A DNA stretch of 5,892 nucleotides from the IMG/VR virus record IMGVR_UViG_2529292735_000014; one strand, 5' to 3'. The notes under the pieces were generated by a model, which saw only the letters and a list, made by a program, of their open reading frames with translations, had not been told where the DNA came from and searched no databases. The stretch comes from a virus. Taxonomy: Duplodnaviria; Heunggongvirae; Uroviricota; Caudoviricetes. Positions 3,417-5,791 of this stretch are shown one piece after another; positions within the stretch are counted from its first letter, which is position 1, and every line of letters starts with the position of its first letter. The translations under genes and the position numbers were made by a program.

Positions 3417-3428
3417 GATTAATTAATC
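3417..3428. promoter_or_regulatory. 12-bp perfect AT-rich palindrome GATTAATTAATC between the A stop and the parM ribosome-binding site; candidate operator
   Basis: Self-complementary 12-mer located 19-30 nt upstream of the parM ATG. Confidence 0.3.
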
Positions 3429-3430
3429 GT

Positions 3431-5791
3431 TTACGGGATTCTGAAATCCCGTTTTTGCCTGTTTTGTGCGCGCTTCATATATCGCTGCGCGTTTTTTTGC
3501 TCATTTACGGGATTCGTGAGTCCCGTTTCTGTCTGTTTTTTGTTTCCACTGGTCAGGCCACCCCGCAGCAGGTCTGCTTTGCGGCGGGCGCGTTCAGTGG
3601 TTTCACTGATTCTCTGTGCGTGCTCTGCGTCGCGGATGGCGCGCAGCATGTCAGAAAGCACGGTAACGGGTGTTTTCATGGTGTTCCGGTCCTGCTGAAG
3701 TGTGGATGCCAGGCGTGTGGCGGCTTCAGGGTCTGATGCCCCCAGCTGTGCCAGATAGCTGGCAACCGGGTTATGGCGGATCTCCGTGCTGCTTACACCG
3801 TGATTACGGCTCAGGCGCTGCCAGAGCTGCGTGATTCGGCTGTCCGGGCGGGTATCCGGTTTGCGTACAATTTCAAATCCCTGCGGTGCAATGATGCTGC
3901 CGTCAACGTACAGACTGCCGCCCCGTAACAGGTGCTGCATTTGTTGTTCACCGATATGCAGGCCGAGAGATTCAGCAGACTCCCGCCATTCTCTAGCGAG
4001 TAATTCGTGGTTATCAGGCAAAGGCCGCGGCTGTTTGCGGCTCTGTGTCCAGCTCTGCATTTCATCACTGCTGTTTTTTGCCTGTTTGTCACGCAGCGAA
4101 CGCATCAGCGCCCGGCGTTCGTGCCGTTTCAGTGAGCGCATCCATTCGTTCACTTCAATGCCGTCAGGAAGCTGCGGCCACGGTGCTGACCGTTCTTCCG
4201 GCTGTTCTGTCCCGTTGTTGTCCGTTTCCTGTACACGGGGACAGTTATTGCCACGAGTCCAAGGGGCGGCAGGGCCGCCCTGAAGGTCAAAACCATTTTC
4301 GCGGGCGCTGTCTTCCGTTTCCGGTTTACGTCTTACCAGTTTCCAGTTATCCGGATGCGTGCACACACGGGAGGATTCCCCGATGAGTGGTGACCAGATC
4401 CCGTAAATCTGTACGCTCTGTTCGCCGTAATCATTCAGCTCATCTGCGAGGTCGTAGGCGGTGCGAATCAGGTAGTCTTTGCGTGGAACAAGTACGCCGC
4501 CCTGTTTTTCAATGTAGGTGGCAAAACACCCGGCATCGGCGGCAGCGAGTACCGCATCCATTGCGTCATCTTTCAGTCGTTGCGGGCCTTCCGGGTTGCG
4601 TGCCATCTGGCTGGCAAGGCGGCGCAGTTCACGCCACACCTGACGGGAGGGGATGCCAAAGAACTGGAACTGGCGGACCCGATGAAGGCGCGCCCAGCCG
4701 ATGGCGCGCTCCACACTCTCGGCCATTGATTTTCCGGTTTCGTGGTCAACGCGTGGCTTGCCCGTTTTCGGGTCGATGCCATCCACGGCGCGGCTGTCCA
4801 GGTTCTTTCCGATGTAGGTGGCGATGTAGCTGGTTGGCGTGCCTTTTGAGCCGTCGACATACTCCGCCTTAAAGCGCGGAGTAATATCATTGTCCAGCTC
4901 GTGGCGGTCTTCCTGAATGGCAATATCGCGGGTGATGGCCACGATGCTGTCGATTTCTTCCGGATGAGCAAAGACCATCATATGCCAGTGCACAGTGCCG
5001 TCATGGTGAGGCTCCACCGTGCGGATGCCATACCAGCGCAGGCCGTCGCGGTTCAGTTTCTTGCGGACCGCCGCAAAAAACGTGTTAACCAGGTAATCGC
5101 TGGAGTCGCGCATGGTGGCCCCGTTCCATTTGGGGTTCGGATGACCGTTCTCCGTTGTTGCGTGGTATTTTGACGGGCAGGTGACAGTCAGAAACACCGC
5201 TTTGTCACCACGGGCTTCGGCCAGAGGTTCCAGCCCCTTCATGGTGGCCATCATTTCTGCCTTACGGTGAACCGGGTTACTTACTCCCGCGTAATACACT
5301 GTCTCGAGATCAATCGTGAACCCGTCTTCATTTTCCAGCATGAAACTTTTCAGGAAATCGCGTGTTTTCTCGCGCTGTGCGCGAAACTCGCTTAACGCGT
5401 CCTGGCTCAGATAGGGCGATGTTTTTCTGGAAACCAGACAGGCGGCGCGGAGTTGTTCTTCTCTCCACTCGCAACGTAACAGCCACAGTTTGCGTTTCCA
5501 CCATTCTGCACAGGTCAGGCGAAGGATTGCGCCCGGCAGCAGCTCCGTGTCCGGTTCGTTCCTCCGGTCTTTGTCTGTTGTCAGTGCGTCATAATGTGGA
5601 GGCATGGCGTGCAGGTGTAACGCCATGCGGGCCAGCATCTGATACGCCTTCAGCGTTACATCCATGGTCAGTTCGCCATCGGTCGCGCCAAAGCCATCGC
5701 AGAGTTTTTCGAAGGTGCTGCTGAACATCGCCGCCGTCATGGTGGCCAGTGTCTGTATCTGGTGTTTGTTGAGCTGCGGCAGGTAAAGCAA
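3431..5791 (-). CDS. A: phage replication initiation protein A (P2 gpA family rolling-circle replication endonuclease); 5' boundary uncertain (TTG 'start', probable upstream continuation or frameshift)
   Basis: Long ORF with the family's hallmark motifs: TVEPHHDGTVHWHMMVF (histidine cluster) and YIATYIGK (two tyrosines three residues apart, as in the P2 A active site YIAKYISK), plus LTVTCPSKYH and AEWWKRKLW, which match P2 A as I recall it. The frame has a stop at 5837-5839 and the first ATG is at 5740. The conserved EWW motif sits about 120 residues closer to the N-terminus than in P2 A, suggesting the true N-terminus is upstream and in another frame. Confidence 0.85.
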   Translation of the reverse strand: MLYLPQLNKHQIQTLATMTAAMFSSTFEKLCDGFGATDGELTMDVTLKAYQMLARMALHLHAMPPHYDALTTDKDRRNEPDTELLPGAILRLTCAEWWKRKLWLLRCEWREEQLRAACLVSRKTSPYLSQDALSEFRAQREKTRDFLKSFMLENEDGFTIDLETVYYAGVSNPVHRKAEMMATMKGLEPLAEARGDKAVFLTVTCPSKYHATTENGHPNPKWNGATMRDSSDYLVNTFFAAVRKKLNRDGLRWYGIRTVEPHHDGTVHWHMMVFAHPEEIDSIVAITRDIAIQEDRHELDNDITPRFKAEYVDGSKGTPTSYIATYIGKNLDSRAVDGIDPKTGKPRVDHETGKSMAESVERAIGWARLHRVRQFQFFGIPSRQVWRELRRLASQMARNPEGPQRLKDDAMDAVLAAADAGCFATYIEKQGGVLVPRKDYLIRTAYDLADELNDYGEQSVQIYGIWSPLIGESSRVCTHPDNWKLVRRKPETEDSARENGFDLQGGPAAPWTRGNNCPRVQETDNNGTEQPEERSAPWPQLPDGIEVNEWMRSLKRHERRALMRSLRDKQAKNSSDEMQSWTQSRKQPRPLPDNHELLAREWRESAESLGLHIGEQQMQHLLRGGSLYVDGSIIAPQGFEIVRKPDTRPDSRITQLWQRLSRNHGVSSTEIRHNPVASYLAQLGASDPEAATRLASTLQQDRNTMKTPVTVLSDMLRAIRDAEHAQRISETTERARRKADLLRGGLTSGNKKQTETGLTNPVNEQKNAQRYMKRAQNRQKRDFRIP
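3433..3545 (+). repeat. tandem pair of ~45-bp direct repeats, each a hairpin plus T-run (+ strand terminator-like), with a weaker GC hairpin plus T7 between them; they overlap the last ~40 codons of gene A and lie just upstream of parM
   Basis: Repeat 1 is TTTACGGGATTCTGAAATCCCGTTTTTGCCTGTTTTG (stem 3433-3440 / 3445-3452, then T5). Repeat 2 is TTTACGGGATTCGTGAGTCCCGTTTCTGTCTGTTTTTTG (stem 3507-3513 / 3520-3526). The middle element pairs 3468-3471 with 3487-3490, followed by T7 at 3492-3498. The two repeats are roughly 85% identical by eye. Confidence 0.5.

What the first reader, a model, noticed from the sequence alone, without database searches (positions are those of the whole stretch)
3417..3545. 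Tandem hairpin-plus-T-run repeats form the 3' end of gene A and the parM upstream region
Two ~45-bp direct repeats (3430..3468 and 3504..3543), each with an ACGGGAT-loop-ATCCCGT stem followed by a T-run, plus a GC hairpin with T7 between them, look like three stacked + strand intrinsic terminators. They lie inside the last ~40 codons of the - strand A ORF, which encodes an unusual K/Q/N/R-rich tail (...NKKQTETGLTNPVNEQKNAQRYMKRAQNRQKRDFRIP). A 12-bp perfect palindrome GATTAATTAATC follows, immediately before parM. Possible roles: (a) terminators blocking antisense read-through from the strong late (portal) operon, (b) a parC-like centromere or operator for the downstream par genes, which in plasmid systems sits exactly here upstream of parM, or (c) cassette-derived sequence fused in frame to A. 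From memory, P2 A is 761 aa and ends soon after the region matching ...YVDGSIIAPQGFEIV here, so this A appears to carry a C-terminal extension of about 100 aa.
Basis: partly seen in the sequence, partly recalled or inferred. Interest (0 to 1): 0.6.

Follow-up and report, generated by a model that had tools for sequence, protein, structure and literature searches.

The report
Likely centromere of a phage parMR cassette
The two repeated hairpin-like sequences are most likely the DNA site (a parC-type centromere/operator) where the ParR protein of a plasmid-style ParM/ParR segregation cassette binds in a P2-like E. coli prophage, and the odd protein tail on the replication gene comes from that gene reading into this DNA plus a one-base slip found only in this sequence.

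Summary
Two 42-nt direct repeats (3427-3468, 3501-3542) are 81% identical. Each holds the dyad CGGGATT-N4-AATCCCG. GATTAATTAATC lies just before parM.

The window is a P88-like (Xuanwuvirus, P2-like) prophage: portal, cargo, parR, parM, gene A.

The repeats belong to the parMR cassette, not to A:
- P88-like A genes with other cargo lose homology at about 3577-3592.
- Two loci with other upstream genes keep the repeats from about 3545.
- All 114 assessable motif hits in IMG/VR lie just upstream of parM.

A pair of YGGG-N10-CCCR dyads 72-74 bp apart is kept upstream of parM in Plesiomonas and Hafnia prophages, where hairpin and T-run potential is lost. The sense strand is A-rich and T-poor with helically phased A-tracts, like R1 parC.

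I read the element as a bipartite ParR-binding centromere/operator (about 0.65). No binding was tested, and no strong promoter is present.

The + strand terminator reading is poorly supported.

The long K/Q/N/R tail of A is private to this window. It carries A7 where at least 74 of 82 relatives carry A6, and in 70 of them A stops in the central spacer. The window has other homopolymer indels that break A and the portal gene.

Interest is moderate. This is a new member of a known kind.

The parts
3501..3542 (.). Distal 42-nt repeat. In the parM sense it reads CAAAAAACAGACAGAAACGGGACTCACGAATCCCGTAAATGA, with the dyad CGGGA-N8-TCCCG at 3507-3526. In most relatives it is translated as the end of A (..KKQTETGFTNPVNEQ..).
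   Evidence: define the repeat and dyad. Homology in loci with other upstream genes (L062, L069) starts right at its 5' edge.
3469..3500 (.). Central spacer of 32 bp (31 bp in relatives). It holds a weak GC dyad, the homopolymer run 3492-3498 (T7 on +, A7 in the par sense; A6 in relatives), and the TGA that normally ends gene A.
   Evidence: The hairpin folds no better than shuffles. The best but weak sigma-70 match, ATGAGC-17-TATATG, lies here.
3427..3468 (.). Proximal 42-nt repeat with the perfect dyad ACGGGATT-N4-AATCCCGT at 3433-3452. It is intergenic in nearly all relatives.
3415..3428 (.). GATTAATTAATC palindrome (3417-3428). Its core ATTAATCAA (3423-3415, par sense) is conserved just 5' of the parM ribosome-binding site in the P88 group, Plesiomonas and Hafnia. 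It supplies TAA stops in two frames.
3403..3411 (-). parM ribosome-binding site, AAGGGAAAG.
   Evidence: Read directly from the sequence.
2439..3398 (-). parM, the actin-like segregation ATPase (319 aa).
   Evidence: Pfam StbA_N 7e-82 and ParM C-terminal domain 1e-68. Full-length match to R1 ParM structure 1mwk, E = 1e-92.
2123..2434 (-). parR, the adaptor (103 aa). It has an N-terminal RRISFYLKP ribbon-helix-helix-type motif and a C-terminal N..LFP tail.
   Evidence: Pfam Plasmid_stab_B 3e-23. 32% identity to R1 ParR over the N-terminal 62 residues. Family alignment.
3431..5892 (-). Gene A (replication endonuclease), which runs off the window. Here it is broken by a +1 G at about 5818, and its tail is altered by the +1 in the 3492-3498 run.
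   Evidence: Pfam Phage_GPA 5e-131. Comparison with P88.
3545..3592 (.). Junction zone between conserved A sequence and the par cassette. Relatives with other cargo diverge to the left of 3577-3592. par loci with other upstream genes converge from about 3545.
4241..4270 (-). Homologue of the P2 ori nick site, inside gene A. Listed to show that the origin is not at the repeats.
   Evidence: P2 record annotation and DNA comparison.

Best explanation
The roughly 145-bp block 3399-3545 is the cis-acting site of a type II (ParMRC) segregation cassette carried in the A-Q cargo hotspot of a P88-like, P2-related prophage. It is bipartite: two 42-bp repeats, about four helical turns each, flank a 31-32-bp spacer.

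Inferred mechanism: each repeat offers a 20-bp dyad (CGGGAT..ATCCCG, GGG/CCC triplets 10 nt apart) to a dimer-of-dimers of the ribbon-helix-helix adaptor ParR. A-tracts phased at about 10.6 bp pre-bend the DNA. The ParR-DNA complex then caps ParM filaments, which move excised or replicating phage circles, and it may also act as an operator.

Unlike R1 parC, the block has no strong promoter of its own and no sense-strand terminator in front of it. parMR is therefore probably transcribed with gene A from the early operon, and so is silent in the lysogen (inferred).

The overlap with A is a by-product. The par-sense strand is 45% A and 13% T, so it contains few stop codons. Whatever gene lies upstream reads into it and gains a K/Q/N/T-rich tail.

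Shown here: the repeats, the cassette linkage, the cross-genus conservation of geometry, the composition and phasing, and intact ParM and ParR. Inferred: ParR binding, centromere activity, and the biological role.
For: 1. Position and partners. The element lies directly 5' of parM-parR. ParM is full length and R1-like. ParR has the R1-type N-terminal motif and the C-terminal tail.

2. Linkage to the cassette.
- A genes of P88-like prophages with Dam/AAA or other cargo lose homology at 3579 and 3592.
- L062 and L069 have unrelated upstream ORFs, yet they keep the element from AAAAACAGACA (about 3545) onward.
- In 80 IMG/VR loci found with the motif alone, 114 of 117 hits sit just upstream of a parM start. 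The other 3 are at contig ends.
- The motif is unique to this place in the P88 genome. The region occurs a median of once per E. coli genome that has it, so it is not a dispersed repeat.

3. Conserved geometry with diverged sequence. YGGG-N10-CCCR pairs lie at -127/-53 (this window; -126/-53 in most P88-like relatives), -132/-60 (Plesiomonas, ParM 63% identical) and -129/-56 (Hafnia, 62%). The spacings are 72-74 bp. The inner 10 nt differ. Serratia and Enterobacter cassettes, whose ParR has a different N-terminal strand (NRKISFYL against TRRISFYL), have a different repeat layout in the same 150 bp.

4. Resemblance to R1 parC.
- The eight highest-scoring 150-nt windows for 10-11-bp A-tract periodicity in the whole 5.9 kb all lie on the element. 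Power is 0.84 with shuffle p = 0.012. R1 parC as a control gives 1.21 with p = 0.0115.
- Sense-strand composition is A 45% / T 13%, against A 51% / T 12% for R1 parC.
- R1 parC is 159 bp, made of two sets of repeats around a 39-bp spacer, and is curved (PMC2241845).

5. The tail is not kept as protein. At least 7 of 82 relatives read it in other frames. The window's frame is unique. The distal repeat shows no third-codon-position excess of diversity.
Against: - No binding, stabilisation or incompatibility data exist for this ParR or this site.
- There are only two clear repeats, not ten iterons. The extra AAAC slots I see at a 10.6-bp lattice are my own reading.
- No convincing sigma-70 promoter was found: best score 3.0, against 10.4 for the R1 par promoter scored with the same matrix. 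One classical property of parC is therefore unconfirmed.
- Nucleotide diversity of the proximal repeat (0.079) and the spacer (0.065) is about as high as at third codon positions (0.05-0.07). Constraint is therefore confined to a few positions: the A-tracts and the GGGAT/ATCC cores.
- A-tract phasing is not significant in the Plesiomonas and Hafnia loci.
- ParR has no sequence match among solved structures, so the ribbon-helix-helix fold rests on family membership.
Confidence: 0.65

Rival explanations
1. Stacked + strand intrinsic terminators that stop antisense read-through (from the late P-Q operon or from cargo) before it enters gene A.
For: The simple scan flags both dyads as terminator-like on the + strand. 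In this window the hairpins fold at -11.3 and -10.2 kcal/mol, and the proximal one is followed by TTTTTGCC. Six of seven transitions seen in the distal dyad keep a G-U pair on the + strand.
Against: - No + strand gene ends within 2.4 kb. Better hairpin-plus-T-run sites lie right after the portal gene, for example 1307-1325.
- The distal tail is TTCTGTCT, and the middle hairpin is no better than shuffles.
- In about 21 of 81 haplotypes the proximal + strand hairpin drops to about -3.3 kcal/mol, and in some the T-run is interrupted.
- In Plesiomonas and Hafnia the conserved dyads have 3-4-bp stems with 10-nt loops and no T-run.
Confidence: 0.07
2. A protein-level feature. The repeat encodes a functional C-terminal peptide (KKQTETGFTNPVNEQ...) appended to A or to whatever gene lies upstream, or it encodes a small ORF.
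For: A (P88 group) and the 157-aa ORF of L062 read the distal repeat in the same frame and end at the same TGA. L069 has a possible 31-codon ORF with a GAGGGGG ribosome-binding site in that frame. Diversity in the distal repeat (0.031) is lower than in the proximal one.
Against: - At least 7 of 82 close relatives, and the window itself, read the tail in other frames through homopolymer indels.
- The second copy is out of frame and untranslated in nearly all loci.
- The codon-position diversity pattern is not that of a constrained peptide: 0.053, 0.007 and 0.033 at positions 1, 2 and 3.
- A proteins without par lack the tail.
- In Serratia and Enterobacter the equivalent region is intergenic.
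Confidence: 0.06
3. Sense-strand RNA hairpins in the A-parM transcript that stabilise or process the mRNA, or tune parM translation.
For: The hairpins also fold on the - strand (-11.2 and -8.7 kcal/mol, z about -3.5). The common proximal variants keep G-U pairs on the sense strand.
Against: The distal variants do the opposite, giving C-A mismatches on the sense strand. Hairpin potential is not conserved in the Plesiomonas and Hafnia loci. The dyads do not overlap the ribosome-binding site. No Rfam family matches.
Confidence: 0.07
4. Binding sites for some protein other than ParR (a host nucleoid protein or another phage regulator), or simply the recombination scar that marks the cassette edge.
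For: The element sits exactly at the left boundary of the cassette. No direct evidence names the binding protein.
Against: The motif occurs nowhere else in the P88 genome. It is always next to parM. Its layout changes together with the ParR N-terminal strand. A scar would not keep a 72-74-bp dyad spacing across genera.
Confidence: 0.12

Closest known systems
parC of the plasmid R1 ParMRC (type II) partition locus
   Same: - It lies directly upstream of parM-parR.
- It is of similar size: about 145 bp here, 159 bp in R1.
- It is bipartite, with repeats on both sides of a 31-39-bp spacer.
- The parM-sense strand is A-rich and T-poor, with helically phased A-tracts that predict curvature.
- ParM is 46.5% identical to R1-type plasmid ParM in tblastn and matches the R1 ParM structure at E = 1e-92. 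ParR shares the N-terminal motif and the C-terminal tail.
   Different: - It has two 42-bp repeats, each with a 20-bp dyad, instead of ten 11-bp direct iterons.
- There is no recognisable sequence similarity to the R1 iterons.
- It has no strong promoter in the spacer (score 3.0 against 10.4).
- It sits in an integrating P2-like phage and overlaps the 3' end of the replication gene.
AlpA/AlpC/alpS of the Corynebacterium glutamicum prophage CGP3
   Same: An integrated prophage encodes an actin-like filament protein, a DNA-binding adaptor, and repeats upstream of the operon. The genes are expressed early after induction and link circular phage DNA to filaments (PMC4446434).
   Different: The proteins are unrelated at the family level (Alp against R1-type ParM/ParR). 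The gene order is reversed. alpS is 24 short TTAAnnG repeats. No function has been shown for the P88-type system.
Cargo hotspot between gpA and gpQ of P2-like prophages (the tin/old locus)
   Same: It is the same genomic slot, between the replication endonuclease and the portal gene, with many alternative cassettes (bioRxiv 10.1101/2021.01.21.427644).
   Different: That hotspot is described for anti-phage defence systems. Here the cargo is a partition cassette, and the cassette junction lies inside the A reading frame.
Rho-independent terminators
   Same: A GC-containing stem-loop is followed by T-rich sequence on the + strand in this window.
   Different: The sites are not at the end of any + strand transcription unit. 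The hairpin and T-run are not conserved in relatives.

Membership tests
Type II (ParMRC) partition locus: parC centromere | Lies immediately upstream of a parM-parR operon. | tested here: met
   The element ends 1-30 nt before the parM start at 3398. parR follows parM.
Type II (ParMRC) partition locus: parC centromere | Intact actin-like ParM and ParR adaptor are encoded alongside. | tested here: met
   ParM: Pfam 7e-82 and 1e-68, and PDB 1mwk 1e-92 over its full length. ParR: PF10784 3e-23, aligned with R1 ParR including the C-terminal tail.
Type II (ParMRC) partition locus: parC centromere | Multiple repeated adaptor-binding sites. | tested here: met
   Two 42-nt repeats, each with a 20-bp dyad, against 0.03 expected by chance. 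Only two clear units are present. Further iteron-like AAAC slots are my interpretation.
Type II (ParMRC) partition locus: parC centromere | Inherited together with parMR across genetic contexts. | tested here: met
   L062 and L069 keep it behind different genes. A genes with other cargo lack it. All 114 assessable motif hits in IMG/VR lie next to parM.
Type II (ParMRC) partition locus: parC centromere | Contains the par promoter, which ParR autoregulates (the R1 paradigm). | tested here: inconclusive
   The best sigma-70 score is 3.0 (central spacer) or 1.8 (TTCAGA-16-ATTAAT), against 10.4 for R1 and 8.6-9.3 for other plasmid loci. No sense-strand terminator separates A from parM, so co-transcription with A is possible.
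Type II (ParMRC) partition locus: parC centromere | ParR binds the site, and the site confers segregational stability and incompatibility. | not testable with these tools
   This needs EMSA or footprinting and plasmid-stability assays.
Rho-independent terminator (+ strand) | Stable GC-rich stem-loop immediately followed by a U-tract. | tested here: inconclusive
   The proximal copy meets this (-11.3 kcal/mol, TTTTTGCC). The distal tail is TTCTGTCT. The middle hairpin has z = -0.68.
Rho-independent terminator (+ strand) | Sits at the 3' end of a transcription unit on that strand. | tested here: not met
   The + strand here is antisense to parM and A. The nearest + strand gene (portal) ends at 976 and has its own terminator-like sites.
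Rho-independent terminator (+ strand) | Hairpin and U-tract are conserved in homologous loci. | tested here: not met
   About 21 of 81 haplotypes have a proximal + strand hairpin of about -3.3 kcal/mol. The Plesiomonas and Hafnia elements have weak or no hairpins and no T-run.
P2-type origin of replication (A nick site) | Contains the conserved nick-site sequence GCGCC^TCGGAGTCCTGTCAATAAC inside gene A. | tested here: not met
   The homologous sequence GCCGCCCCTTGGACTCGTGGCAATAACTG is at 4241-4270, about 700 nt from the repeats.

The most novel reading that the evidence does not exclude
P88-like P2 phages, present in about a quarter of complete E. coli genomes, use a promoter-less, two-dyad centromere at the end of their replication gene. 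ParM/ParR would then be made only together with the replication initiator after infection or induction. The system would physically position or segregate the excised, replicating phage circles, or allow a plasmid-like carrier state. This would be an E. coli counterpart of the CGP3 AlpACS system.

A more exotic version is not excluded: the centromere-encoded tail on the A protein has a function of its own in coupling replication to segregation.
Probability: 0.3. Interest if true: 0.6.

Novelty: new member of a known kind. Interest (0 to 1): 0.4.

Why it matters
ParM and ParR are already annotated in P88-like prophages, but I found no description of their cis site or their role. The papers that mention these phages list the genes only as 'fitness' cargo.

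Pinning the site to a defined 145-bp block with two testable dyads makes a simple question approachable by experiment: why does an integrating temperate phage, found in 1370 of 5426 complete E. coli genomes, carry a plasmid partition machine?

The case is also a practical caution for annotation. T-poor centromere DNA lets the upstream gene read on, so gene A acquires cargo-dependent C-terminal tails. Homopolymer runs inside it make those tails frame-unstable or prone to sequencing error.

Tried and rejected
- Origin of replication. The P2 nick-site homologue is at 4241-4270, not at the repeats.
- Known RNA family. No Rfam match at the repeats, even at E up to 1.
- Dispersed repeat (REP-like or IS end). 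The region occurs once per genome at the median, and the motif is always next to parM.
- Strand-specific RNA selection. Transitions in the distal dyad favour + strand wobble pairs, and those in the proximal dyad favour sense-strand wobbles. There is no consistent signal.
- Population-level conservation. Diversity in the proximal repeat and spacer is about neutral, so this gives little support either way.
- Promoter search with a home-made sigma-70 matrix. It gave only weak candidates. R1 and two other plasmid loci served as positive controls.
- Sequence similarity to plasmid parC regions. The nearest plasmid ParM loci (52% identity) and the R1-type locus have unrelated upstream repeats.
- ParR against solved structures. 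No hit.
- A 51-nt search of E. coli genomes to count T7 alleles. It returned nothing, probably because of low-complexity masking, so it is not used.
- Single-protein scan of genome contigs with ParM. It gave only three near-identical loci. The Hafnia ParM found nothing in IMG/VR.
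Full report
**What the window is.** Megablast places the whole window in phage P88 and its relatives (Xuanwuvirus, Peduoviridae, P2-like) at about 97% identity. The 401 nt around the finding occur in 1370 of 5426 complete E. coli genomes. Almost all copies are on chromosomes, with a median of one per genome that has any. 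On the + strand the window holds the end of the portal gene. On the - strand it holds an Ead/Ea22-like gene (1596-2060), parR (2123-2434), parM (2439-3398) and the replication endonuclease gene A (3431 to beyond 5892). This is the gpA-gpQ cargo hotspot described for P2-like prophages.

**The observation.**
- One direct-repeat family stands out: 3427-3468 and 3501-3542, 42 nt, 81% identical, 74 nt apart. It is the only repeat of that size in 900-3700.
- Each copy contains a dyad: ACGGGATT-N4-AATCCCGT, or the same with one G-T position.
- The dyad pattern occurs twice in the window against 0.03 expected, and nowhere else in the 35.8-kb P88 genome.
- The palindrome GATTAATTAATC is at 3417-3428.
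- The hairpins fold on either strand at about -9 to -11 kcal/mol. The central GC dyad folds no better than shuffled sequence.
- The description is therefore accurate.

**The tail of A.**
- P2 A aligns with this ORF only up to ..LYVDG, which is residue 631 here and residue 740 of 761 in P2.
- Aligning A C-termini separates two parts. About 105 residues (SIIAPQGFEIV ... ETTERARRKA) are shared by P88-like A proteins whatever the cargo: par, a Dam-plus-AAA cassette in L002, or another cassette in L003. After that the tails are unrelated.
- At the DNA level, relatives with other cargo match the window only to the right of 3579 or 3592.
P88 and at least 74 of 82 related loci carry A6 where the window has A7 (3492-3498). 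In 70 of the 82, A ends at a TGA in the central spacer, 79 nt before parM. At least seven others use other frames because of indels in the A-runs.
- Against P88, the window also has single-base homopolymer differences at 5818 (breaks A), 685 (splits the portal gene) and 1079. These point to sequencing error or a decaying prophage.
- The K/Q/N/R/T-rich composition follows from translating DNA that is 45% A and 13% T on that strand.

**The repeats belong to the par cassette.**
- In two IMG/VR loci, different genes precede parM: a 157-aa ORF in L062 and other ORFs in L069. Similarity to the window begins exactly at AAAAACAGACA, the 5' edge of the distal repeat, about 3545.
- A scan of IMG/VR with the motif alone returned at least 120 stretches. 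In the 80 read, 114 of 117 motif hits lie within 180 nt upstream of a parM start, and the other three are cut by contig ends. Pairs are 73 nt apart in 36 loci and 72 nt in one.

**Conservation across genera.** ParM homologues of 54-63% identity sit in the same slot of P2-like prophages in Plesiomonas, Hafnia, Serratia and Enterobacter.
- In Plesiomonas and Hafnia, whose ParR shares the N-terminal strand TRR[IV]SFYL with this one, the upstream region again carries two YGGG-N10-CCCR dyads. They lie at -132/-60 and -129/-56, against -127/-53 in this window (-126/-53 in most P88-like relatives). The spacing is 72-74 bp. The ten inner bases are unrelated.
- These versions have 3-4-bp stems with 10-nt loops and no T-run. 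On the strand antisense to parM most fold poorly: -4.6, -5.8 and -9.3 kcal/mol, with z between -0.5 and -1.8. The one exception (-18.4) owes its stability to flanking GC arms.
- What is conserved is therefore the geometry of double-stranded DNA, not an RNA hairpin or a terminator.
- Serratia and Enterobacter cassettes have ParR with NRKISFYL. In the same 150 bp they carry a different layout: a 14-20-nt inverted repeat, GGGAACGATATAGAAAAAT, with 26-28 nt between the arms. The region is fully intergenic there.
- This co-variation of site layout with the adaptor's DNA-reading strand is what a cognate centromere would show. With only two groups the evidence is thin.

**Resemblance to R1 parC.**
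- R1 parC is 159 bp: two sets of five 11-bp iterons around a 39-bp promoter spacer. It is strongly curved (PMC2241845). I recovered it upstream of an R1-type parM.
- The element here is about 145 bp: two 42-bp repeats around 31-32 bp.
- A-tracts start at par-sense offsets 62, 72, 94, 106, 136, 146 and 168 of the 3600-to-3399 segment. They fit a lattice of about 10.6 bp.
- The eight best 150-nt windows for 10-11-bp A-tract periodicity in the whole window all fall on the element. Power is 0.84 (shuffle p = 0.012), against 1.21 (p = 0.0115) for R1 parC.
- ParM matches the R1 ParM structures over its full length. ParR aligns with R1 ParR, including the C-terminal N..LFP-type tail. From established work on R1, that tail is the part that contacts ParM.

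**Differences from R1 parC.**
- There are two long repeats with dyads, not ten short iterons, and there is no sequence similarity.
- With one scoring matrix the R1 par promoter scores 10.4 and two other plasmid loci score 8.6-9.3. The best candidates here score 3.0 and 1.8.
- No sense-strand terminator lies between A and parM.
- I therefore infer that parMR is read through from gene A in the early operon. That would keep a chromosomally integrated centromere system silent in lysogens.
- A precedent for an integrated prophage with an actin-like protein, an adaptor and upstream repeats is CGP3 AlpACS, which is needed for efficient phage DNA replication (PMC4446434).

**The terminator reading.**
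- In this window the proximal dyad plus TTTTTGCC looks like a + strand terminator, and the simple scan flags both dyads.
- The + strand here is antisense to parM and A, 2.4 kb from the nearest + strand gene. That gene has its own terminator-like sites.
- The distal T-run is broken, and the central hairpin is not significant.
- About a quarter of close relatives carry proximal variants (GCGGGATTTAAAAATCCTGT and similar) whose + strand hairpin is only about -3.3 kcal/mol.
- The feature is absent in the Plesiomonas and Hafnia homologues.
- Wobble-compatible changes favour the + strand in the distal copy and the sense strand in the proximal copy, so no RNA strand is consistently protected.

**Limits.**
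- Among close relatives the proximal repeat and spacer are about as variable as third codon positions: 0.079 and 0.065 against 0.05-0.07. Invariant positions are concentrated in the A-tracts, the GGGAT/ATCC cores and the ATTAATCAA block.
- Nothing here shows binding.
- The conserved ATTAATCAA just before the ribosome-binding site is unexplained. It overlaps a good -10 only in Hafnia. It supplies stop codons in two frames ahead of parM.

**Verdict.** The striking tail is a private homopolymer frameshift. This is a new member of a known kind. It is of moderate interest, mainly because the role of a partition system in a very common integrating phage is unstudied.

Noticed in passing
window 685, 1079, 3492-3498, 5818: Compared with P88, the window has single-base homopolymer length differences. 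The one at 685 splits the portal gene into two ORFs (66-737 and 689-976). The one at 5818 puts a stop in gene A. The one at 3492-3498 changes the A tail. This suggests sequencing or assembly error, or a decaying prophage.
   Followed up: partly
window 1398-1428 (with 1307-1325): TTGTGCA occurs three times at a 10-11-bp period (ATTGTGCAAA TTTGTGCACT ATTGTGCAGC) in the non-coding stretch between the portal gene and the cargo. It lies about 70 nt after a strong hairpin-plus-T7 site at 1307-1325. It is the best + strand region for A-tract periodicity. Its function is unknown; a regulatory or cos-proximal site is possible.
   Followed up: no
window 3595-3900 (A residues about 632-736): P88-like A proteins carry a conserved extension of about 105 residues beyond the end of P2 A (SIIAPQGFEIV...ETTERARRKA). 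It is present whatever cargo follows and has no Pfam match.
   Followed up: partly
window 4241-4270: A homologue of the P2 ori nick site lies inside gene A: GCCGCCCCTTGGACTCGTGGCAATAACTG here, against GCCGCGCCTCGGAGTCCTGTCAATAACTG in P2.
   Followed up: yes
L069 about 1325-1421: A possible 31-codon ORF (MKRINANTKAKKQTETGFTNPVNEQKTRRDI) sits behind a GAGGGGG ribosome-binding-site-like sequence. It reads through the distal repeat in the same frame as A does in P88. In L062 a 157-aa ORF of unknown family is fused to the repeat in that frame too.
   Followed up: partly
L009 4453-4956 (Hafnia): A 167-aa ORF with no Pfam match lies between A and parM. It runs across both dyads and stops 45 nt before parM. 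This is another case of an upstream ORF reading through the T-poor element.
   Followed up: no
L012 and L100 (Serratia), L101 (Enterobacter): The par cassettes of these P2-like prophages have a different cis layout (a long inverted repeat and ATTTCATGACC direct repeats). They are followed by HicA/HicB in Serratia or a KAP NTPase in Enterobacter.
   Followed up: partly
window 1592-1630: A weak Rfam hit to the nadA motif on the + strand (26.3 bits against a gathering score of 37.5, E = 0.009). It overlaps the end of the Ead/Ea22-like gene and is probably chance.
   Followed up: no
L096 (Salmonella plasmid pS2122_1): A complete P88-like A-parM-parR-portal segment sits on a 272-kb IncHI2A plasmid. 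It is one of only two plasmid-borne copies among the E. coli genome hits and six near-identical plasmid hits.
   Followed up: no
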